From UHGV virus genome UHGV-0224961: a stretch of 39,860 nucleotides of DNA; one strand, given 5' to 3'. Origin of the DNA: a virus. The notes under the pieces were generated by a model. It was not told where the DNA came from and did not search any database. It saw only the letters and a program-made list of their open reading frames with translations. Shown here piece by piece: positions 2,988 to 39,609 of the stretch (the first letter of the stretch is position 1; the number at the start of each line of letters is the position of its first letter). Both the position numbers and the translations under genes were made by a program.

Positions 2988-3869
2988 TTACATAGATGTT
3001 TCGTTTAATTCTTCCCGACGAACGCTGTAAACGTCGGTGGCTTTTGCCAGCAGTTCGTCATCATCTGAAAGTTTTTGTGCAATGTATTTGTAAGCCTTAT
3101 CCAGTTCGGAGACAGTGCTGTAATTCATCGCTGCGCTGGTAAAGGCCATCAGCATTTCTTCTGGATCACGGCTATCCGCTTTACGCGTTTGCTCATCAGG
3201 CTTTTTCACTGGTTTAGCGTTGATCAGACTGTTCATTCCCGCAGCAGTAGTCGTTTGCGGAGTAATGTCTCGCTCAACGCGCGGTGCCGTTTCCTGTAAT
3301 TCGTCAGGGGTGTAAACACCGAGAAGTACATCAGGAGCGTGCAGGCGAGCCCATCGTTTCGTGCAAAGATAGGCAAGCTGCTGGCGCGGATCCTGTTCCC
3401 ACAATGGAGAGTTACGCACTCCGGCTTGCGCCATACTGATGGTAAGCTCACGGGGTTCTGCTTCTCCTTTAAGAACTGCTGACACAGTTACCGTCAGATT
3501 CGGTGATTTATCTGTTTTGCCGTTAACATTCGACCAGTCACCGCTCCAGCGATAATTCAGGCGTGTCGCTAGCAGGCTGGAAGAGGATACGACCGCATTT
3601 ACCAACTGTGCTTCGTAGCCTAACGTTCCGTTTACCACATGCGTTTTCTGCGCCACGGCGAAAGGGTTCATTCCCCACTGTGCCGCCTGCATGGTCACCG
3701 CCAGACAATCGGCAGGTTTGCCTTCAAGATGTTTCGGTACAGTCGCTTTGCTTTGTGACATCAACTCCGCGAAACGCACCAGTTGATTCATGCCCTCCGG
3801 GCTGAAGATTGCCGCAGCAGTACCTACAGTTGCGCCTGGTTGTGATGTGATTGCGATATCATTGCTCAT
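2988..3869 (-). CDS. Single-strand annealing protein (Bet/Redbeta/RecT superfamily)
   Basis: 293 aa; WGMNPF and ERDITP segments resemble lambda Bet as recalled; directly downstream of and overlapping the Exo-like gene. Confidence 0.65.
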   Translation of the reverse strand: MSNDIAITSQPGATVGTAAAIFSPEGMNQLVRFAELMSQSKATVPKHLEGKPADCLAVTMQAAQWGMNPFAVAQKTHVVNGTLGYEAQLVNAVVSSSSLLATRLNYRWSGDWSNVNGKTDKSPNLTVTVSAVLKGEAEPRELTISMAQAGVRNSPLWEQDPRQQLAYLCTKRWARLHAPDVLLGVYTPDELQETAPRVERDITPQTTTAAGMNSLINAKPVKKPDEQTRKADSRDPEEMLMAFTSAAMNYSTVSELDKAYKYIAQKLSDDDELLAKATDVYSVRREELNETSM

Positions 3870-4687
3870 ACGTACATATCCTGTTTACGTGCCCAGTCAG
3901 GGCGTTTAATAATTTCCACTCCGCCCCACTCATCGTTGATGCGGCATTCGTGATAGGTATTCAGATCCCGGCGGAACAGAGCGTGCCCGGCATCGACATC
4001 CGGCGCATCCAGCTCGAACACGCGTACCGGATACCGACCACAATCAATGCTTTCGCTCACGGCAAGAAAGAAAAAACCATGCGGCTGACCAGTAACCCTC
4101 ATTGCGCCTTCGCGGTACATTGCGTCCTGCACGTGGTAGCGGAATTCCTCGATGTGGCGTGCAAAACGGTCCATATCTGCAACCTTTTTCACGTCGACGA
4201 TCACGTTGTGCTCGTTCAGCCATTTGTCTGGACGAATGCGGCACAACTCACCAGTCTCTTCATCATTCCAGTACATTGATGCTTCGCAGTAACCAGGTGC
4301 TTCCAGCATCCAGCGTGCCGCCGGGTGAGCCATTGCGCTATCACGCATAAGCTCCAGTTTCCGCCACTGCTCGGCATCAAGTACCGTAATCCCCATATCC
4401 GCTACATCACGAAGAAATGCTTCTTCGTCAGCTTTACCTTGTTTCGTCCGACGATCGAATTTCGGTGAAACAATGAAGCGTTTGTTGAATTCTCCAGGCT
4501 CCAGAAGCAGACAGTGCAATGCGGTTCCCATATCCAGTGCAGACTTTTTCTCTTCGTCTTCTGGTGCTGCCTGAACCCATTTAAGAAGCGCCGGATTCTT
4601 GGCAACCATGTCCAGTTGCGACTTACTCACGCCGTCACCGGCGTGGTAGTCTTCGTTGCTGATGTCGAAATAAATTCCCGGTTTCAT
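3866..4687 (-). CDS. YqaJ/lambda-Exo-like PD-(D/E)xK exonuclease
   Basis: 273 aa; IRPDKW...DVKK motif; paired with the annealing protein as a Red-like recombination module. Confidence 0.7.
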   Translation of the reverse strand: MKPGIYFDISNEDYHAGDGVSKSQLDMVAKNPALLKWVQAAPEDEEKKSALDMGTALHCLLLEPGEFNKRFIVSPKFDRRTKQGKADEEAFLRDVADMGITVLDAEQWRKLELMRDSAMAHPAARWMLEAPGYCEASMYWNDEETGELCRIRPDKWLNEHNVIVDVKKVADMDRFARHIEEFRYHVQDAMYREGAMRVTGQPHGFFFLAVSESIDCGRYPVRVFELDAPDVDAGHALFRRDLNTYHECRINDEWGGVEIIKRPDWARKQDMYV

Positions 4688-4983
4688 GCCGCGTCCCTCT
4701 GTCCATCAAGCTGATCCGCCAGATCCCAGCGGGCGATAATTGCCATTGCCTCTCGCCGATAGGCATCCATCAGTTCTTCGAACTCAGGGCTGTCTTTAGC
4801 AGCCTCCAGTACTTCCTGACGAACGCCTTTACCTGTTACAACGTCGAAAGTTGAGGACAGTTGATGAAGTCGGATGCTCTCAATCAGTTCAACTTGTCGG
4901 TCATATAGCTGTTCTGACAGGCGGTAGTCCTTGTCGAATGCCAGCATGATTTTTTGAAGATTTTTCTGCTGATTAACGTTCAT
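4684..4983 (-). CDS. Hypothetical early protein
   Basis: Start at ATG 4983 with GGGAGGG RBS 7 nt upstream; ATGA overlap with the exonuclease gene. Confidence 0.55.
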   Translation of the reverse strand: MNVNQQKNLQKIMLAFDKDYRLSEQLYDRQVELIESIRLHQLSSTFDVVTGKGVRQEVLEAAKDSPEFEELMDAYRREAMAIIARWDLADQLDGQRDAA

Positions 4984-4985
4984 TA

Positions 4986-5138
4986 TCAGCCCTCCCATAT
5001 CTCGTTATCGTTGGCCACATCGCGAGCTTCTTTGCTGACGAAAGCCCACTTGATGCCTTCCTGTAAGGTGCGGAACTTCCAGCTCATGAATCCGCATGCA
5101 GTAACGCAGTACCAACCGTTGATGATTTTCCACTGCAT
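4986..5138 (-). CDS. Small hypothetical protein (50 aa), first gene of the leftward early operon
   Basis: Hand-translated MQWKIINGWYCVTACGFMSWKFRTLQEGIKWAFVSKEARDVANDNEIWEG; GAGG RBS; stop overlaps the next start (TGATAATG); below the ORF-track size cutoff. Confidence 0.35.
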   Translation of the reverse strand: MQWKIINGWYCVTACGFMSWKFRTLQEGIKWAFVSKEARDVANDNEIWEG

Positions 5139-5144
5139 AACTTG

Positions 5145-5234
5145 TTACCTCGGTCTGTTACCGTTGAGGTAATGATTATGCGTATTTGGTTTGGTGTCAA
5201 TAGATATGAGTTAAAAAAATTACCCGTTAGGTAA
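5145..5234. promoter_or_regulatory. OL-like operator cluster: two perfect TTACC-N5-GGTAA palindromes (5158-5172, 5220-5234) plus a TTACC half-site
   Basis: Palindromes lie between the repressor terminator and the first leftward early gene. Confidence 0.6.
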
Positions 5235-5245
5235 TCAAATAAGCA

Positions 5246-5269
5246 ATAAAAAAGCCGCCAGAAGGCGGC
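5246..5269 (-). terminator. Rho-independent terminator of the repressor transcript
   Basis: gccgcc-agaa-ggcggc stem-loop with an A-run on the plus strand (U-run on minus) immediately 3' of the repressor stop. Confidence 0.65.
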
Positions 5270-5291
5270 TTACTTACTGAAAAATATGTTT

Positions 5292-5876
5292 TTATTGTTT
5301 GTTTTTTTCGTTCTGGTTGATGACAAATTCAATGTAACTTTCGATCTTTGCCTTCTCTGTTTCAGGTAACAATGCGTAGCGCGAGCGGTCATAGTTGATA
5401 GTCGCGGGGTCGTGCGGGTGAATCAGTAATTCATATCCGTGACGCCCAAATGCGGATGCAACATTCTCCAGGGTGGAAATGGAAACGCTGACCTCATTGT
5501 TTAACAGGCGGCTGATTGTTACCTGGGCGACGCCGGATGCGCGGTGAAGTTTTCCCTGCGTTGAAAGGTCGCGGCTTTCGCTCATCCAGCGTTCCAGGTT
5601 GTGAGCCGCCAGTTGACCAATGTCGCTTGGTCCGACAGGCTGAAAACCTTCCTGAGAAAGCGAGCGATCGATATCAAGCCAGTTACGGGGTTTATTGGCG
5701 GCAGCTTCAATTTTTCGCGCAACCTGGTCGCCGATAACCTTCTTGCCAAGAGCCCAGCGGTTTACCAGATTTGCCTGAGTTCCAAGTTTTTCAGCCATCC
5801 GCGTCTGAACACCATTGAATTCACGGTCGATCAAGTCGTTGAGATTTTGCCTGCGGACGTCCTGGATACTTTTCAT
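5292..5876 (-). CDS. CI-like repressor with two HTH-like regions and no S24 peptidase domain
   Basis: 194 aa; N-terminal XRE-type HTH (TRMAEKLGTQANLVNRWALGKK); second HTH-like segment (ASGVAQVTISRLLNNE); no G-S-M / Lys autocleavage motifs seen; flanked by operator clusters. Confidence 0.75.
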   Translation of the reverse strand: MKSIQDVRRQNLNDLIDREFNGVQTRMAEKLGTQANLVNRWALGKKVIGDQVARKIEAAANKPRNWLDIDRSLSQEGFQPVGPSDIGQLAAHNLERWMSESRDLSTQGKLHRASGVAQVTISRLLNNEVSVSISTLENVASAFGRHGYELLIHPHDPATINYDRSRYALLPETEKAKIESYIEFVINQNEKNKQ

Positions 5877-5931
5877 TTTCTGGAAAATCGCCTCATATCT
5901 GAATCAGAAGATGATTCAATTTAAAGCAATA

Positions 5932-5994
5932 TTACCCAACAGGTAAATGCACCTCATGGGTAACTATCCTTGATTTTTGTTACCTTATAGGTGA
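5932..5994. promoter_or_regulatory. OR-like operator cluster: TTACC-CAACA-GGTAA (5932-5946), GCACC-TCATG-GGTAA (5949-5963), TTACC-TTATA-GGTGA (5980-5994)
   Basis: One perfect and two imperfect palindromes in the 154-bp divergent region between the repressor and the cro-like gene. Confidence 0.65.
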
Positions 5995-6030
5995 ATATTT
6001 ATTATCTGAAATAAATATCAGGCAATAGCT

Positions 6031-6261
6031 ATGAGCGATAACGGACATTTCGATTTCAAAAAGCACTGGCTTGCACTTACTCCGGATGAGCGTGAAGCCT
6101 TCGCACAGGAAGCCGGAACGACGAGTCACTATATCCAGACTCACTTAACAGGTAAGCGCAAAATGCCAGGTAAGGTATTGATGAATGGGCTTTTTAAAGC
6201 CTGTAAATCAAGACAATGGCTGCGCTCAAAAGCAGAACTGGCATACTTCTTCTACTCATGA
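6031..6261 (+). CDS. Cro-like HTH protein
   Basis: 76 aa; divergent from the repressor; HTH-like segment LTPDEREAFAQEAGTTSHYIQTHLTGKRK. Confidence 0.65.
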   Translation: MSDNGHFDFKKHWLALTPDEREAFAQEAGTTSHYIQTHLTGKRKMPGKVLMNGLFKACKSRQWLRSKAELAYFFYS

Positions 6262-6411
6262 TATCCAGCCACAACCCTCTGTAGACCGCCATCCGGCGGT
6301 CTTTTCATATCTATTCGCACCTTGAGGGTAATAAAAAACCAAATGTGGTTGATCTTTTTTTTGTGTCAGCACAAAATGACCGTAATCCCAATACAAATAA
6401 CAGGGCTTACC

Positions 6412-6612
6412 ATGGAAATCATTACACGTATTGATGCCGCAAAGCGCGGACTTAAACGCTACTACACCGGAAAACCATGTAAGCACGGACATGACAGTGA
6501 ACGCTGGGTTTACAACGGACACTGTGTTGAGTGCACCATGGAATCAAACCGTCGTATCAGGGCAGAGATTAAGCAGATCATGATTAATTCCTCCCCACAA
6601 CATTCAAGCTGA
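6412..6612 (+). CDS. Small Cys/His-rich putative zinc-binding protein
   Basis: 66 aa from ATG 6412 (the track ORF extends to 6322); CKHGH...HCVEC cluster. Confidence 0.45.
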   Translation: MEIITRIDAAKRGLKRYYTGKPCKHGHDSERWVYNGHCVECTMESNRRIRAEIKQIMINSSPQHSS

Positions 6613-6627
6613 TAGCGGAGATTAATC

Positions 6628-7419
6628 ATGAGCAGACATGCAACAGATTGGGCCTGGGAGACAGATCCAGGTAGCTCGTCATTAAAGCTCATACTGCTCT
6701 CGATGGCTGACAGAGCAGATGAATATAACCTCTGCTACCCCAGCATAGAACGCCTCGTTAAAGACACTTGCCTGAATAAAAAAACCGTGCAGGCCGGGCT
6801 TATATCGCTCATGAAAATGGGGCTTATTTCAGATACCGGAGAGAGAAAGGGAGCGACAAAAAGAGTGCGGGTTTTCTCTCTTAATATAACCAAAAACGGG
6901 AACATTAAAGGCAACCGGGAGGGGGGCAATGAACCCGAAAACGGTAATGTTACCGAAAACGGGAATATACCCAAAAACGGGATGTTGAATGATCCCAAAA
7001 ACGGGATCCAGAACCAGTCATATAACCAGTCATTTAACCAAGAGAGGGAGAGCAGGACAAAAAACGGGGATTCTGTGCATCATGACCCCAACGCAAACAA
7101 CGCCGTGATGAATAACTTTGTTCCTCCTGGTGGGCCAGGGCAATTAGGCAAATTTGTCATGCATGAACAATGGCAGCCATCAGATGACTTTCTTCGGAAA
7201 AGCTCATTGCAGGGGATCTACCTGGACAGTCTGCCAACGGCACAGGAACTTGCAGAGTTCAGAATTTACTGGATGGCTGAGGGTAAGGCATACCATCAGG
7301 CACAGTGGGAGCAGAAGCTGGCAAGGCGGCTGCAGATTAGCAGACAGAAGCAATCAACATTACCTGATAACAACGTTCCGCACTGGAACAGCCCTGAAGC
7401 ATGGGAGGATTTCTTGTGA
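6628..7419 (+). CDS. Replication initiator (lambda O-like role; N-terminal winged-HTH-like domain)
   Basis: 263 aa; iterons embedded in the central coding region; immediately upstream of the P-like gene. Confidence 0.7.
   Translation: MSRHATDWAWETDPGSSSLKLILLSMADRADEYNLCYPSIERLVKDTCLNKKTVQAGLISLMKMGLISDTGERKGATKRVRVFSLNITKNGNIKGNREGGNEPENGNVTENGNIPKNGMLNDPKNGIQNQSYNQSFNQERESRTKNGDSVHHDPNANNAVMNNFVPPGGPGQLGKFVMHEQWQPSDDFLRKSSLQGIYLDSLPTAQELAEFRIYWMAEGKAYHQAQWEQKLARRLQISRQKQSTLPDNNVPHWNSPEAWEDFL
6889..7070. repeat. Origin-like iteron array inside the initiator gene
   Basis: Six or more copies of CC(C/G)AAAACGG(G/T)A at 6890, 6934, 6953, 6970, 6994 and 7057, followed by a direct repeat aaccagtcat x2 (7012-7033). 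Confidence 0.6.
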
Positions 7420-8201
7420 ACAACGTTTTTACCGCGATACAAAACCGTGACGGAGAAGCCCTTTCTCGCATGTCAGGTTATGAGCATCAGTACGTCAACA
7501 ATGACAATGTGGTGAACATGTCAGCAGAGAGGCTTGTTGATGCTCTTTTCAAACAGCTGAAACAGCTGTTTCCGGCGGCAGTGGTAACCAACCTGAAGAC
7601 GCCAGAGCAGGAAGTTGCTGCAAAACAGCAGTGGATTGCTGCGTTTGCCGAAGGTGGGATCCGAACCCGTGAACAGGTTTCTGCTGGTATGCGCCACGCC
7701 CGCGCCAGTGAATCTCCGTTCTGGCCGTCGCCAGGGCAATTTATCAAGTGGTGCAAAGACAGCAAGATGGTTCTTGGCGTCACCATTGACGATGTGATGG
7801 CGGAGTTTCACCGGTACAGCAAGGAAAAAAGTTTATATCCTGGTGGTCCCGAAAGATTCCCGTGGCGACATCCGGTTATGTACTGGGTCGTATGTGATAC
7901 CCGCCGTGCAATGTATCAGCGCCAGCTTAGCGAGATTGAGGTTGAGAAACACGCGCGCAGGCTGCTCGATGATTGGGCGAAAAAGGTGGCTTCCGGACAG
8001 CAGATACCCGATCCGGTGATCAGCATACAGGCAAAGCCAGAACCCATGAGTACGCCTCCGGACACAGGGAGAGACGTTTACCATCCACCAGGGCGAAGTT
8101 TCGGGTGTATGCCTAACGCCGCCACCCTGGGGGGAATAACACCGGCGCAGTGGCTGATGGAGGAATACAGGCGGGGAAAGGCGGCAGGATTTATCAAGTA
8201 A
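7416..8201 (+). CDS. Replication protein P-like (DnaB helicase loader)
   Basis: SPGQFIKWCKD and FPWRHPVMYWVV match lambda P segments as recalled; GTG 7416 with GGAGGA RBS, overlapping the initiator stop. Confidence 0.8.
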   Translation: MNNVFTAIQNRDGEALSRMSGYEHQYVNNDNVVNMSAERLVDALFKQLKQLFPAAVVTNLKTPEQEVAAKQQWIAAFAEGGIRTREQVSAGMRHARASESPFWPSPGQFIKWCKDSKMVLGVTIDDVMAEFHRYSKEKSLYPGGPERFPWRHPVMYWVVCDTRRAMYQRQLSEIEVEKHARRLLDDWAKKVASGQQIPDPVISIQAKPEPMSTPPDTGRDVYHPPGRSFGCMPNAATLGGITPAQWLMEEYRRGKAAGFIK

Positions 8202-8206
8202 TACCA

Positions 8207-8226
8207 GCGCGATAGCGCATTTTTTT
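8207..8226 (+). terminator. Weak terminator-like hairpin with T-run after the P-like gene
   Basis: gcgc-gata-gcgc followed by tttttt; stem only 4 bp. Confidence 0.3.
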
Positions 8227-8238
8227 ACGCCCACATGA

Positions 8239-8315
8239 TTACCTGATGGGTAATAAAATATTCTAGTATCTATTGATTTCATGTCTTATGTGGTTTTTAA
8301 TTACCTAAGGGGTAA
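8239..8315. promoter_or_regulatory. Two perfect TTACC-N5-GGTAA palindromes (8239-8253, 8301-8315) bracketing a TATCTA-N14-TATGTGGTT promoter-like motif
   Basis: Second palindrome ends 3 nt before the ATG at 8319. Confidence 0.55.
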
Positions 8316-8318
8316 ATC

Positions 8319-8663
8319 ATGAGAAAACAGATACAGGCTCTTGGTCGGCTCAAAACAGGCCAGATGAACAAAACAGAATCTGCGTATTGCCAGCACCTTG
8401 AGCTGCGTAAACGTGCAGGGGAAATCGCATGGTATCGATTCGAGGGTATCAAGCTGCGGTTAGCTGACAACACGTTCTATACGCCAGATTTCGCTGTGAT
8501 GCTCGCCACCGGAGAGATGGAACTGCACGAAGTGAAAGGTTTCTGGACCGACGACGCCAGGGTGAAAACCAAAGTCGCCGCAGATCAGTATCCGTTCCGA
8601 ATCATCGGGGTAACGGTTAAACCAAAGAAAGCAGGTGGTGGCTGGAACATCGAAGAGTTCTGA
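8319..8663 (+). CDS. Small PD-(D/E)xK-like nuclease (VRR-NUC/DUF1064-like)
   Basis: 114 aa; PDF...ELHEVKG arrangement consistent with a D-E-K nuclease core. Confidence 0.5.
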   Translation: MRKQIQALGRLKTGQMNKTESAYCQHLELRKRAGEIAWYRFEGIKLRLADNTFYTPDFAVMLATGEMELHEVKGFWTDDARVKTKVAADQYPFRIIGVTVKPKKAGGGWNIEEF

Positions 8664-8724
8664 ATCGACGATCTTTTTAGTTATCAATGTAATCAATAAG
8701 TTATGTGGATAAGCGAGGGTAAAG

Positions 8725-9153
8725 ATGGAAAGTAATATCAAAGGGTTAGTTGCCGCCGGGCATGAGATGGCTTCGGAACTGAAAGCAGAATGTGGTGCCG
8801 TTGATATGCGCAGTGTGGCAAAGCTGATCAGCGATTTGGCAACGCAACTGGAAGTGCAACTGGTGCGTGCTAATGCGCTGGCGGCGGAGAATGCAAAGCT
8901 GAAGAAGTTCTGCAAAGACGCTGCATTCGATGCCGATTACGAAGCAGAGCTAGGTATGGAGCGTGGTGGATTCAGTGATGCGCTTAACGAAATCAAAACC
9001 CCAGCCACCGATGCTTTTCTGGCTGAAGTACGGGCGCAGGGCGTGGAGATGGCTATGGAACATATGCAGTCGAGCGGTTCGTTAACATTTGGAGATTGCT
9101 ACATATCACTTAACGAGTTCGCCGCAGAGCTTCGCAAAGGAGGCAGCCAGTGA
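8725..9153 (+). CDS. Ea22-like family protein (paralog 1)
   Basis: C-terminal ATDAFLAEVRAQGV...FAAELRKGGSQ shared with the ORF at 10263. Confidence 0.55.
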   Translation: MESNIKGLVAAGHEMASELKAECGAVDMRSVAKLISDLATQLEVQLVRANALAAENAKLKKFCKDAAFDADYEAELGMERGGFSDALNEIKTPATDAFLAEVRAQGVEMAMEHMQSSGSLTFGDCYISLNEFAAELRKGGSQ

Positions 9154-9638
9154 CTGGAAATGCAGCAATCCTCGACATGTGCTGTGGCAGTCGCATGTTC
9201 TGGTTCGATAAGAATGACGACCGGGCGATATTTAGCGATATCAGAAAGGAAGAGCACACATTATGTGATGGACGACGCCTGATTATCAGTCCTGACCTGA
9301 TAGCTGATTTTCGTGCACTACCATTTGCAGACGCATCCTTTTCGATGGTTGTATTCGACCCTCCGCATCTTGAGCGTGTTGGTGATAACGCCTGGATGGG
9401 AAAGAAATATGGACGGCTGAATAAAGATACCTGGCGTGATGATTTGCGGCAGGGGTTTAAAGAAGCCTTTCGGGTGTTGTGGCCACACGGCGTTCTGATT
9501 TTTAAATGGAATGAAACGCAAATACCTGTTCGCCAGATATTGGCACTGACCGACAGAAAGCCTGTTATCGGTCAACGAACAGGAAAGGGTGACAAGACCC
9601 ACTGGATTATTTTTATGAAGGAGGCATCCAGTGAGTAA
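9150..9638 (+). CDS. Putative DNA amino-methyltransferase (DPPH motif)
   Basis: 162 aa; LDMCCGS (motif I-like) and VVFDPPH (motif IV-like); GTG start 6 nt after AAAGGAGG. Confidence 0.55.
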   Translation: MTGNAAILDMCCGSRMFWFDKNDDRAIFSDIRKEEHTLCDGRRLIISPDLIADFRALPFADASFSMVVFDPPHLERVGDNAWMGKKYGRLNKDTWRDDLRQGFKEAFRVLWPHGVLIFKWNETQIPVRQILALTDRKPVIGQRTGKGDKTHWIIFMKEASSE

Positions 9639-10275
9639 CCGTTTTTACATGATGTGCTTGCGTGAAACTGTGGGTAATAACGCCTCATTCCATTGCCATA
9701 ACGGCAATGGTTACAGTTCTGATATCGATCGCGCTCATGTTTACACGCTAGAAGAAGCCCAAAAAGCCTGGAATTGTGGGCGAGATATCGATCAGCCTGT
9801 TTGTGCCGATAGTGTGGATGCAATTGCTGTGTGGCACGTTGATTGCCAGTACATCCCTACAGAAAGCCTGATTGAGTCAGATTGCACTGCGTATGTGGCC
9901 TACAAAAAAGGTAGCTGGAACGGCAACGATGTTTACTGGCTTCAACACGGTGGATTGCCAACAGATGATTTCAGTAAAGCGACCATCTTTAGCGTCGCCA
10001 ACAAAAACGAACCAGGAATAGTTTGGTTGCCATTTCCCATTGCTGATGCAGCAAAGCGCCGGACGTTCAATATCAATAACTTTAACCGCAGAACAATGGT
10101 TCAGGGCGCAGGTTTGGTCATGCCTGACTGGTTGAAAGAGCAGAACAGAAGAAAGAAGTCGCGAAGCGGGAAGGTGCGTTGGAATTGTCCGCATTGCGGA
10201 AAAATCACCTGGCAGTACAGCCCATATGATTTTGAAGGCTGTAGTGATTACAACTGTGAAGGATGGCGAGAATGA
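9631..10275 (+). CDS. Hypothetical protein with C-terminal zinc-ribbon (CPHCG...C..C)
   Basis: 214 aa; overlapping gene starts typical of phage operons. Confidence 0.5.
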   Translation: MSNRFYMMCLRETVGNNASFHCHNGNGYSSDIDRAHVYTLEEAQKAWNCGRDIDQPVCADSVDAIAVWHVDCQYIPTESLIESDCTAYVAYKKGSWNGNDVYWLQHGGLPTDDFSKATIFSVANKNEPGIVWLPFPIADAAKRRTFNINNFNRRTMVQGAGLVMPDWLKEQNRRKKSRSGKVRWNCPHCGKITWQYSPYDFEGCSDYNCEGWRE

Positions 10276-38535: not shown

Positions 38536-39075
38536 TTAGTTAAACCAGCTGTCCGATTTGTTCTCTTCTGCTTTGCCCACGCTTTTCATCAGATCGCGAC
38601 CGCCTTCAGTCATATTCCTGTTTGCGTCAGCTTCAGATTGCACCACATCGGTTTGCGCAGCTTTGTGCTTCAGTTCCTGATCGATAAATTCGTTTTCTCG
38701 CTTAACGCGGGCTTCTTCTTTCGCCAGCGCCAGTTTTTGTTTCTGAATCTCTAAGCTGCGTAGCTCATCTTCATAACTTTGATCGCGTTTCTTGTCCGCA
38801 GTGGCTTCGGCGTCCAGTTTATCCTGACGAGCTTTCTTATTCGCCGCTGCCGTTGCCGCTCTTTTATTAGCCGCGGCCTGGGCGTTTGCGCGACGTTGCT
38901 TCTCTTGCTGGATTTCCCTGTTGCGCTCCGCGACCCATTCGTCATGCTGCCTTTGCTCTTCATTTTTACCTTGCTGTTCCGCTTCTGCGACAGCAGAGAG
39001 TTGATCCTGCAATGATGAGGCGATAGCCGGATAGCTTAAGGAGGCTAAGATGGCGCAAAGAAAAACTTTCTTCAT
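38536..39075 (-). CDS. Secreted charged coiled-coil protein (probable host or cargo gene)
   Basis: Signal peptide MKKVFLCAILASLSYPAIA; Lys/Glu/Ala/Gln-rich. Confidence 0.6.
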   Translation of the reverse strand: MKKVFLCAILASLSYPAIASSLQDQLSAVAEAEQQGKNEEQRQHDEWVAERNREIQQEKQRRANAQAAANKRAATAAANKKARQDKLDAEATADKKRDQSYEDELRSLEIQKQKLALAKEEARVKRENEFIDQELKHKAAQTDVVQSEADANRNMTEGGRDLMKSVGKAEENKSDSWFN

Positions 39076-39090
39076 GACTCCTCCTGATTA

Positions 39091-39609
39091 TTAGCTCTTT
39101 TCAGGACATTTGGTATTTGGCTGAATACGCGTTTCGTTATACGTCGTGGTAATAACAACGGCTAAACCTGTCGTAAACTGGCACTCTTTACCCACCTGGG
39201 TGGAGGTATACACTTTGGTGCCTTCCTTATACGTTAGAGAAACACCTTCCACTAAGGTTTTATCATTCACCATAGAACCTGCTGCCGCGCCAACAGCTCC
39301 GCCGCCAACTGCACCTGCCGTCGTTCCGGAATTGCTGCCAGACCCCACGTTGTGGCCGATAACACCGCCAGCGACTGCACCAATAAGCGCGCCGAAGGCT
39401 TGTGCGTTTCGTTTATTTTGGGAGTTGTCTACGGCAACTTTTGCGGGAAGAATGGAAATAATATTAACGGTTTTAGTTTCTTGTTTGGTATTCAGTTGAT
39501 CGGTTTGATAAACATCGGCGGCATGATCATCAGCATTTGACTGGCATCCTGCCAGAGTGAATGACGCTAACATTGCCACAGGCAGAAGACATTTTTTAAA
39601 TTTCATCAC
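39091..39609 (-). CDS. Lipoprotein with glycine-zipper motif (YcfJ-like)
   Basis: Lipobox FTLAGC; GALIGAVAGGVIGHNVGSG glycine zipper. Confidence 0.7.
   Translation of the reverse strand: MMKFKKCLLPVAMLASFTLAGCQSNADDHAADVYQTDQLNTKQETKTVNIISILPAKVAVDNSQNKRNAQAFGALIGAVAGGVIGHNVGSGSNSGTTAGAVGGGAVGAAAGSMVNDKTLVEGVSLTYKEGTKVYTSTQVGKECQFTTGLAVVITTTYNETRIQPNTKCPEKS

What the first reader, a model, noticed from the sequence alone, without database searches (positions are those of the whole stretch)
6889..7070. Replication origin iterons embedded in the initiator gene
At least six copies of CC(C/G)AAAACGG(G/T)A at 17-44 bp spacing lie inside the O-like gene and encode a repetitive NG/KNG-rich linker; a direct repeat aaccagtcat x2 follows. 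This is the lambda-type arrangement in which the initiator binds an origin inside its own coding sequence.
Basis: partly seen in the sequence, partly recalled or inferred. Interest (0 to 1): 0.4.

Follow-up and report, generated by a model that had tools for sequence, protein, structure and literature searches.

The report
Phage replication origin inside initiator gene
The repeats are real and are most likely the replication origin of a phiV10-like E. coli phage, lying inside the gene of the protein that binds it: a lambda-style layout, here found conserved across a large, differently built family of prophage initiators.

Summary
Confirmed with corrections. The window is a phiV10/epsilon15-like (Uetakevirus) E. 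coli phage. Gene 6628-7419 encodes an N-terminal winged-helix domain (Pfam HTH_36), a linker and a DnaT-like C-terminal domain; a lambda-P-type helicase loader follows. The linker DNA holds five, not six, 16-bp dyad repeats (best copy ATCCCAAAAACGGGAT), then three 12-bp units (AGAACCAGTCAT-like) and a 90% purine tract.

Comparative evidence points to a DNA-level, initiator-bound element. Every N-domain homologue examined in detail, down to 35% identity, carries the same motif at the same place. In 65 species the motif is 18 times denser there than in the flanks, and often falls in different reading frames of one gene. The outer bases change symmetrically on both half-sites. They also track the first residue of the recognition helix: Arg goes with GT, Glu with CC, Ile with CA/AC, Lys (here) with T/A. 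Proteins sharing only the C-terminal domain lack the array. Close relatives carry 4-9 copies by strict DNA motif count (up to about 11 read from peptide repeats).

Origin function is inferred, not shown, and this phage's AT-rich stretch is weak. I rate it a new member of a known kind, of moderate interest.

The parts
6628..7419 (+). Replication initiator gene (263 aa): N-terminal winged helix, linker that carries the origin, DnaT-like C-terminal domain
   Evidence: Pfam HTH_36 at aa 18-67 (E 1.7e-10) and DnaT at aa 176-244 (E 1.1e-15). phrog_1032 'replication initiation protein', E 3.7e-102. Annotated 'replication initiation protein' in RefSeq phiV10.
6628..6885 (+). Coding region of the winged-helix DNA-binding domain (aa 1-86); Lys51 is the first residue of the recognition helix
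   Evidence: AlphaFold2 on a 71-sequence alignment, pLDDT 93.6: helices 3-11, 17-28, 40-47 and 51-63, wing 67-74/80-85. Foldseek finds winged-helix DNA binders, including plasmid RepA N-terminal domains 4pql and 5kbj.
6887..6902 (+). Iteron 1, TAACCAAAAACGGGAA
6932..6947 (+). Iteron 2, AACCCGAAAACGGTAA
6950..6965 (+). Iteron 3, TTACCGAAAACGGGAA
6968..6983 (+). Iteron 4, TACCCAAAAACGGGAT
   Evidence: This is the 24-bp unit that is duplicated in phiV10, phiv142-3 and PAS61.
6992..7007 (+). Iteron 5, ATCCCAAAAACGGGAT; joint-best dyad (arms ATCCC/GGGAT) and nearest the 12-mers
7010..7045 (+). Three tandem 12-bp units (AGAACCAGTCAT, ATAACCAGTCAT, TTAACCAAGAGA), 36% GC; proposed DNA-unwinding element
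   Evidence: TRF 7012-7040, period 12, score 51. Homologous 12-13-bp yAGAAYCwnnCAw units occur 2-3 times directly after the last iteron in 39 of 40 related loci, at 44 per kb against 3.5 per kb elsewhere. The 40-nt window starting at 7006 is less stable than 93% of windows.
7040..7070 (+).
   Evidence: Sequence read. AT skew of 0.4-0.6 over 6880-7100. The sixth copy has 0 of 8 dyad pairs and varies among relatives.
7144..7395 (+). Coding region of the DnaT-like C-terminal domain (aa 173-256)
   Evidence: PDB DnaT C-terminal domain chains 6aep, 4ou6 and 9zbt, E 7e-21 to 2e-19. NCBIfam DnaT profile positions 86-169.
7401..8201 (+). Lambda-P-type helicase loader gene, overlapping the end of the initiator gene
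   Evidence: Pfam Phage_lambda_P, E 1.5e-56. phrog_109 'P-like helicase loader', E 4.7e-92.

Best explanation
This is the phage's origin of replication, built like lambda's and lying in the linker-coding part of the initiator gene.

Proposed mechanism:
1. Dimers of the initiator's N-terminal winged-helix domain bind the five 16-bp dyad iterons at 6887-7007. The first residue of the recognition helix (Lys51) reads the outer bases of each half-site.
2. The loaded array strains the adjacent three 12-bp units and the purine-rich tract (7010-7070), which open.
3. The C-terminal DnaT-like domain, together with the P-type loader encoded next door, brings in the host DnaB helicase.
4. The early rightward transcript that expresses the gene also passes through the origin.

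Shown here:
- The repeats, their dyad form and their restriction to this one site.
- Conservation as DNA rather than as peptide.
- Linkage to the N-terminal domain.
- Co-variation with the recognition helix.

Inferred only:
- Actual binding.
- Unwinding at 7010-7070.
- Helicase recruitment.
- Any role for transcription.
For: - **Non-random and unique.** Five hits against 0.99 expected, all within 117 bp.
- **Conserved place.** In PPompW, Vibrio H20, Edwardsiella GF-2, Acinetobacter AP22 and Burkholderia Bcep176 (35-49% identity) the same motif sits right after the N-terminal domain.
- **Family-wide enrichment.** In 65 genomes of different species the motif density is 9.5 per kb in the 330 nt after the domain and 0.53 per kb elsewhere in the loci.
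- **DNA-level conservation.** In 23 of 40 loci the sites use 2 or 3 reading frames, and 48 of 154 spacings are not multiples of 3.
- **Dyad co-variation.** Outer pairs (2,15) and (1,16) are complementary in 65% and 57% of 147 distinct sites, against 43% and 33% after shuffling; 0 of 2000 shuffles reach the observed values.
- **Protein-DNA co-variation.** Residue x of L-N-x-K-T tracks the outer half-site bases. Arg goes with G (80%) and T (92%) in 21 loci, Glu with CC in 6, Ile with CA/AC in 5, and Lys with T/A in 6. A confident model places that residue at the start of the recognition helix.
- **Cassette swap.** Acinetobacter L103 and L114 are 92% identical over aa 1-50 and 58% over aa 51-90. 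Their iterons change from GTCCC to CACCC, while the visible start of the downstream gene part looks nearly identical by eye (not measured).
- **Negative control.** SPN1S, Tyrion and TL-2011b share only the DnaT-like domain and have no such array.
- **Flanking elements.** 12-13-bp units occur in 39 of 40 loci, and family-average AT content rises by 0.10-0.12 at +30 to +50 after the last iteron.
- **Partner gene.** A P-type loader lies immediately downstream.
- **Parallel with lambda.** Lambda's iterons (TCCCTCAAAACGAGGGA) sit at the same relative place in gene O. Iteron number also varies among Stx phages (PMC7466680), as it does here: 4-9 copies.
Against: - There is no experimental evidence for binding or origin activity, and I found no paper on it.
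- This phage's presumed unwinding region is only moderately unstable: -50 against a window mean of -56.3 kcal/mol per 40 nt, the 93rd percentile. Many intergenic stretches in the window are far less stable.
- Only iterons 3 and 5 reach even 5 of 8 dyad pairs; the other three have 3 of 8.
- The co-variation counts are not corrected for shared ancestry.
- Homology of the N-terminal domain to lambda O is not demonstrated (hhalign E 0.03, probability 1.65%).
- The GC-skew minimum lies about 1 kb to the left, at the switch in gene orientation, so it does not discriminate.
Confidence: 0.8

Rival explanations
1. The repeats are binding sites for the initiator, but they serve autoregulation, copy control (handcuffing) or a transcription roadblock. 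Unwinding and initiation would take place elsewhere in the genome.
For: The AT-rich element at this site is weak in this phage, and much less stable stretches exist elsewhere, for example around 5979, 8251 and 36183. Iterons are known from plasmid biology to serve control functions as well; this rests on my general knowledge.
Against: No second cluster of the motif exists anywhere in the near-complete 39.9-kb genome. The conserved 12-13-bp units and AT or A-rich tract always follow the array across the family, which is the anatomy of an origin. Lambda's origin has the same layout.
Confidence: 0.1
2. The repeats matter only as protein. They would encode a low-complexity NG-rich flexible linker that expands and contracts by slippage, with no function as DNA.
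For: Within this phage all five copies are in one reading frame and give xKNG or xENG peptides. Copy number varies by in-frame 18- and 24-bp units among close relatives. One frame (PKNG-like) is preferred across the family.
Against: The same DNA motif occurs in 2-3 frames within single genes and then encodes unrelated peptides such as TQKR, PKTE and SQNR. The sites are dyad-symmetric, with matching changes on both half-sites. Their outer bases track a recognition-helix residue. Neither of the last two has a peptide-level explanation.
Confidence: 0.04
3. The repeats are bound by a different protein, either a host factor or another phage protein such as the small product of 6322-6612, rather than by the initiator's own N-terminal domain.
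For: No binding experiment exists. The conserved core (CC, an A-rich centre, GG) is nearly invariant across hosts, so a conserved host factor could in principle read it.
Against: The array is found only with this N-terminal domain and is absent from same-genus phages that have another N-terminal domain. The flank bases co-vary with the domain's recognition helix, including in a near-isogenic pair. Hosts range from Enterobacterales to Desulfovibrionaceae.
Confidence: 0.05

Closest known systems
Bacteriophage lambda ori within gene O, with the O initiator and P helicase loader; also Stx phages 933W and P27
   Same: Several dyad-symmetric iterons with an A-tract centre lie in the linker-coding middle of the initiator gene, just after the DNA-binding domain (lambda TCCCTCAAAACGAGGGA x4). 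An AT- or purine-rich stretch follows on the downstream side. A P-family loader gene comes next. Iteron number varies between relatives and changes linker length (4 against 6 in lambda and Stx phages, PMC7466680; 4-9 here). The N-terminal domain and origin travel as one module while the C-terminal part travels with the loader; the GF-2 hybrid shows this.
   Different: The initiator's N-terminal domain matches Pfam HTH_36, not Phage_rep_O. A direct profile comparison with lambda O is not significant. The iterons are 16 bp with 4-5-bp arms rather than 18-19 bp with 6-bp arms. The C-terminal domain is DnaT-like rather than lambda-O-type. Three tandem 12-bp units lie between the iterons and the purine tract, and the AT-rich stretch is weak.
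Iteron-type plasmid origins with winged-helix Rep proteins (for example staphylococcal RepA_N plasmids, PDB 4pql and 5kbj)
   Same: A winged-helix initiator domain would bind repeated sites next to an unwinding element. The predicted N-terminal domain superposes on the RepA N-terminal domain and on a Rep-iteron DNA complex among many winged-helix hits.
   Different: The fold matches are generic (E 0.003-0.04, TM 0.5-0.6), and MarR, Fur and ArsR regulators score as well or better. No sequence-level relationship was found.
E. coli primosomal protein DnaT, the label most databases give this protein
   Same: The C-terminal 85 residues match the DnaT C-terminal domain (called 'DnaT DNA-binding domain' by Pfam): PDB 6aep and 4ou6, E about 1e-20, and Pfam DnaT.
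   Different: Only the C-terminal domain matches. The score of 85.5 bits is far below the NCBIfam DnaT cut-off of 201. The N-terminal winged helix and the embedded iterons have no counterpart in DnaT. Database names such as 'primosomal protein' therefore understate its role as origin-binding initiator.

Membership tests
Lambda-type origin (ori embedded in the initiator gene) | Three or more repeated initiator-binding sites (iterons), each with internal dyad symmetry, clustered at one site | tested here: met
   Five copies lie in 6887-7007 and none elsewhere in the window. Dyad symmetry is significant across the family, though only iterons 3 and 5 reach 5 of 8 dyad pairs here.
Lambda-type origin (ori embedded in the initiator gene) | Iterons lie inside the initiator's own coding sequence, between the DNA-binding and partner-binding domains | tested here: met
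   The iterons fall at gene positions 260-380, between the winged helix (aa 1-86) and the DnaT-like domain (aa 173-256). Lambda's iterons are at L010 535-619, inside O at 187-1086.
Lambda-type origin (ori embedded in the initiator gene) | AT-rich, strand-asymmetric unwinding region directly downstream of the last iteron | tested here: inconclusive
   Region 7010-7045 is 36% GC, and 7040-7070 is 90% purine on the top strand. Stability reaches only the 93rd percentile of the window. The family average shows AT enrichment of 0.10-0.12 at +30 to +50.
Lambda-type origin (ori embedded in the initiator gene) | Helicase loader gene of the lambda P family immediately downstream | tested here: met
   Pfam Phage_lambda_P, E 1.5e-56.
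Lambda-type origin (ori embedded in the initiator gene) | Initiator-dependent replication of the fragment | not testable with these tools
   This needs a plasmid replication assay or in vivo origin mapping.
Lambda O protein family (Pfam Phage_rep_O, PF04492) | N-terminal domain matches the Phage_rep_O profile | tested here: not met
   There is no Phage_rep_O hit even at E up to 10, whereas lambda O scores 7e-37 in the same call. hhalign against lambda O gives E 0.03 and probability 1.65%. The only link is indirect: both proteins hit phrog_678 and phrog_345.
HTH_36-type phage and prophage replication initiators (phrog_1032 and relatives) | N-terminal HTH_36 winged helix above the Pfam threshold | tested here: met
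   41 bits against a cut-off of 25. phrog_1032, E 3.7e-102. A confident winged-helix model.
HTH_36-type phage and prophage replication initiators (phrog_1032 and relatives) | Array of CC-(A-rich 6 bp)-GG dyad sites directly after the domain, then 12-13-bp AGAAYC units. This feature is defined in this report, not in the literature. | tested here: met
   The window has five sites and three units. Forty of 71 loci have at least 3 strict sites, and 39 of those 40 have the units. About a third of loci, mostly Acinetobacter, fall below the strict motif and were not analysed further.
Primosomal protein DnaT | Full-length match above the NCBIfam equivalog cut-off | tested here: not met
   85.5 bits against a cut-off of 201, and only profile positions 86-169 match.

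The most novel reading that the evidence does not exclude
The module of winged helix, 16-bp dyad iterons, tandem 12-13-bp AGAAYC units and an A-rich tract may be a previously undescribed, widely spread origin cassette of proteobacterial prophages. It would have a simple, readable specificity code: the first recognition-helix residue (Arg, Glu, Ile or Lys) sets the outer half-site bases (GT, CC, CA or T/A). That would let co-resident prophages keep separate origins, and the cassette would be swapped as a unit between different C-terminal and helicase-loader modules. The 12-13-bp units may be a sequence-specific single-strand or unwinding signal read by the initiator, not merely AT-rich DNA.
Probability: 0.35. 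Interest if true: 0.55.

Novelty: new member of a known kind. Interest (0 to 1): 0.38.

Why it matters
- **Annotation.** It would place the replication origin of phiV10/epsilon15-like phages, which are used as reporter and typing phages for E. coli O157, and of many related prophages. Their initiator is currently labelled 'primosomal protein', 'DnaT-like' or just 'helix-turn-helix protein'. The phiV10 RefSeq record shows no origin feature in this region.
- **A rule for finding origins.** The family-wide signature allows origins to be found by sequence in hundreds of prophages.
- **A testable specificity code.** The link between the recognition-helix residue and the iteron flank is a concrete prediction about origin specificity and about incompatibility between co-resident prophages.
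- **Engineering.** Recoding or truncating this gene will damage the origin, because the two overlap.

Tried and rejected
- **First structure model.** The full-length model, built on 10 near-identical sequences, gave pLDDT 34 and was discarded. A second model of the N-terminal domain alone, on 71 diverse sequences, worked.
- **Fold search.** It returned only generic winged-helix matches and no specific initiator family.
- **Homology to lambda O.** BLASTP and hhalign were not significant, so I make no claim of homology.
- **Literature.** Searches on phiV10 plus origin, epsilon15 plus iterons, HTH_36 plus phage replication, and the literal repeat sequences found no description of this origin. The sequence-string hits were unrelated primers.
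- **DnaA boxes.** None lies near the site; the only two are at 8704 and 39619, fewer than chance would give.
- **Promoter and terminator scan.** Counts were not above chance. The minus-strand 'terminator' at 6997-6978 is just an iteron dyad followed by a T run.
- **GC skew.** The minimum, at about 5-6 kb, coincides with the switch in gene orientation and says nothing specific about the origin.
- **Genome scan.** A 4-sequence alignment worked.
- **Viral-contig scan.** It returned only near-identical relatives, useful for copy number but not for diversity.
- **12-mer motif.** My first strict regular expression missed many loci and was replaced by the core [GT]AAYC.
- **12-mers as iteron half-sites.** I considered this; it holds in some lineages (Pseudoalteromonas, Acinetobacter) but not here or in Vibrio, so I rejected it as a general rule (by eye).

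Full report
**What the window is.** The region is 94-99.5% identical to phiV10-like E. coli phages of the genus Uetakevirus (the epsilon15 group). Gene 6628-7419 (263 aa) has a Pfam HTH_36 domain at aa 18-67 and a DnaT domain at aa 176-244. It matches the PHROG family 'replication initiation protein' at E 3.7e-102. The next gene, 7401-8201, belongs to the lambda P helicase-loader family (E 1.5e-56). The two genes lie downstream of a divergent repressor and cro-like region, as in lambdoid phages.

**Checking the observation.** The pattern CCNAAAACGGKA, with up to one mismatch, occurs five times in the 39,860-bp window. All five lie within 6890-7006. The chance expectation is 0.99, and no shuffle out of 100 reaches five. 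The repeat finder and TRF recover the same array and the 12-bp tandem repeat at 7012-7040. These two arrays are among the three highest-scoring tandem repeats in the window.

As 16-mers the copies are 6887-6902, 6932-6947, 6950-6965, 6968-6983 and 6992-7007. The last, ATCCCAAAAACGGGAT, has complementary arms ATCCC/GGGAT and, with iteron 3, the most dyad pairs (5 of 8). I therefore count five, with a possible decayed copy at 6911-6926.

**DNA signal or peptide repeat?** In this phage all copies share one reading frame, so the window alone cannot decide. Relatives can.

- Five phages share only the N-terminal domain, at 35-49% identity: E. coli PPompW, Vibrio H20, Edwardsiella GF-2, Acinetobacter AP22 and Burkholderia Bcep176. 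All carry 3-6 copies of the same motif at gene positions of about 270-450.
- Within single genes the motif falls in different frames and encodes unrelated peptides. Examples are TQKRE against PKNGS in PPompW, TQKRD against PKIG in GF-2, and all three frames in Bcep176.
- A scan of one genome per species gave 65 loci, from Enterobacterales, Vibrionales, Alteromonadales, Moraxellales, Desulfovibrionaceae and others. Motif density is 9.5 per kb in the 330 nt after the domain and 0.53 per kb in the rest of the same loci.
- Of the 40 loci with at least three strict sites, 23 use two or three frames. 48 of 154 spacings are not multiples of three.

**Who binds the repeats?** Four results point to the initiator's own N-terminal domain.

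1. *Dyad symmetry.* Among 147 distinct 16-mers, the outer pairs (2,15) and (1,16) are complementary in 65% and 57% of sites. After shuffling the values are 43% and 33%, and none of 2000 shuffles reaches the observed values. Lineages differ as TACC..GGTA, TCCC..GGGA and CCCC..GGGG. This is what a dimer site looks like.
2. *Co-variation with the protein.* The outer bases track one residue, x in the conserved L-N-x-K-T. Arg goes with G (80%) and T (92%) in 21 loci. Glu goes with C and C in 6 loci. Ile goes with CA or AC in 5 loci. Lys, as in this phage, goes with T/A in 6 loci. A confident AlphaFold2 model of the domain (pLDDT 93.6) shows a winged helix with recognition helix 51-63, so this residue (Lys51 here) is its first residue. 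Arg with G and Glu with C are chemically plausible contacts; that last point is my inference.
3. *A near-isogenic contrast.* Acinetobacter loci L103 and L114 are 92% identical over aa 1-50 but 58% over aa 51-90. Their iterons switch from GTCCC to CACCC, while the visible start of the downstream gene part looks nearly identical by eye.
4. *A negative control.* SPN1S, Tyrion (both in the same genus as this phage) and TL-2011b share only the DnaT-like C-terminal domain. They have neither this motif nor any comparable array in the gene.

These counts are not corrected for shared ancestry, so they are strong indications rather than proof.

**Anatomy beyond the iterons.** Directly after the last iteron, 39 of 40 loci carry two or three tandem units with consensus yAGAAYCwnnCAw. 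The units are spaced 12 bp (31 cases) or 13 bp (23 cases), so they are not locked to a reading frame. Their density is 44 per kb against 3.5 per kb elsewhere. An A- or AT-rich tract follows, and family-average AT content rises by 0.10-0.12 at +30 to +50.

A tract that is 90% purine on the top strand follows at 7040-7070. In this phage the stretch is only moderately unstable, at the 93rd percentile of 40-nt windows. The unwinding role is therefore an inference resting mainly on position and on conservation across the family.

**Variation among close relatives.** phiV10, phiv142-3 and PAS61 carry one extra exact 24-bp unit, and phiV10 has a third AACCAGTCATAT. Among 80 near-identical viral contigs the strict copy number runs from 4 to 9, with 6 the commonest, through gain and loss of 18- or 24-bp units. 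Database proteins run from 263 to 311 aa and differ almost only in this repeat. Lambda and the Stx phages show the same behaviour, with four against six iterons and 13 extra residues in O (PMC7466680).

**Comparison with lambda.** Lambda's four iterons (TCCCTCAAAACGAGGGA and variants) lie at 39034-39118 within gene O, followed by an A-rich tract. The layout here is the same, and the iteron is a shorter relative in form: TCCC, an A-rich centre, GGGA.

The protein, however, does not match Pfam Phage_rep_O. BLASTP and hhalign against lambda O are not significant. The only link is that both N-terminal regions hit phrog_678 and phrog_345. The Edwardsiella GF-2 initiator joins this N-terminal domain, its iterons and its 12-mers to a lambda-O-type C-terminal part and a P gene. 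AP22 pairs the same N-terminal domain with a DnaB-like helicase gene. So the DNA-binding domain and origin behave as one module, and the C-terminal domain and helicase partner as another. This matches what is established for lambdoid hybrids, a point that rests on my general knowledge.

**Rival explanations.**
- *Pure peptide repeat.* Contradicted by frame independence, dyad symmetry and protein-DNA co-variation.
- *Binding by another protein.* Contradicted by linkage to the N-terminal domain and by the co-variation.
- *Initiator sites used for control, with initiation elsewhere.* Not excluded, because the AT-rich stretch here is weak. However, no second motif cluster exists in the genome, and the conserved 12-mers and A-tract give the site the anatomy of an origin.

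**Novelty.** An origin made of iterons inside the initiator gene is textbook for lambda. I found no paper describing it for phiV10/epsilon15-like phages or for HTH_36-type initiators. One paper notes HTH_36 proteins in Stx-phage replication modules without mentioning iterons (PMC8951638). The library does not cover most subscription journals, so an earlier description, for example in reviews of phage replication modules, cannot be ruled out.

**Verdict.** This is a new member of a known kind, and a specialist would not be surprised. The added value lies in the family-wide signature, the conserved 12-13-bp units and the testable link between the recognition-helix residue and the iteron flank. 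Interest is 0.38, and my confidence in the origin reading is 0.8.

Noticed in passing
L004 (PP488543.1, 131937-138295), matching window ~3600-10000: The record 'Escherichia phage BP9' is a 138-kb Vequintavirus, yet it ends with a 99.5%-identical copy of this Uetakevirus early and replication region. This is probably a chimeric assembly or a contaminating prophage fragment.
   Followed up: no
L007 (Edwardsiella phage GF-2) 1201-2043: This initiator is a hybrid. It joins the HTH_36 N-terminal domain, the iterons and the 12-mers to a lambda-O-type C-terminal part (phrog_277, E 1.9e-63). The junction lies just after the A-rich tract, and the sequence keeps a lambda-like GAGAATTCTGACGAATCCTC.
   Followed up: partly
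L103 and L114 (Acinetobacter prophages) 1501-1970: The two genes are near-identical except for aa 51-90 (recognition helix and wing) and the iteron array, which changes from GTCCC to CACCC. This looks like a swap of a specificity cassette.
   Followed up: partly
L156 (SPN1S) 730-1545 and L157 (Tyrion) 748-1515: These phages are in the same genus as the window, but their initiators have a different, Pfam-unassigned N-terminal part and no repeat array in the gene. Their origins are therefore elsewhere or of another type.
   Followed up: no
Protein hits P0121-P0240: Many database proteins of this N-terminal domain family are only 90-160 aa long or are labelled partial. Contigs or ORF calls may often break within the iteron array.
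   Followed up: no
window 6322-6612 (+): The small ORF just upstream of the initiator gene has a CxH...CxxC motif (CKHGHDSERWVYNGHCVEC) and no Pfam hit. phiV10 annotates a shorter hypothetical protein at this place.
   Followed up: no
window 6897-6907 and 6945-6955: An 11-nt inverted repeat (CGGGAACATTA / TAATGTTACCG) links the right flank of iteron 1 to the left flank of iteron 3. Its significance is unknown.
   Followed up: no
window ~5000-6000: The cumulative GC-skew minimum coincides with the divergent repressor and early-gene boundary, about 1 kb left of the iterons. It is confounded by gene orientation.
   Followed up: no
About 20 loci of L111-L155 (mostly Acinetobacter): About a third of the N-terminal domain homologues have fewer than three strict motif hits. 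They may use a divergent iteron, with sites such as TGCCAAATCCGGCAC and GTCCCAATAATGGAA.
   Followed up: no
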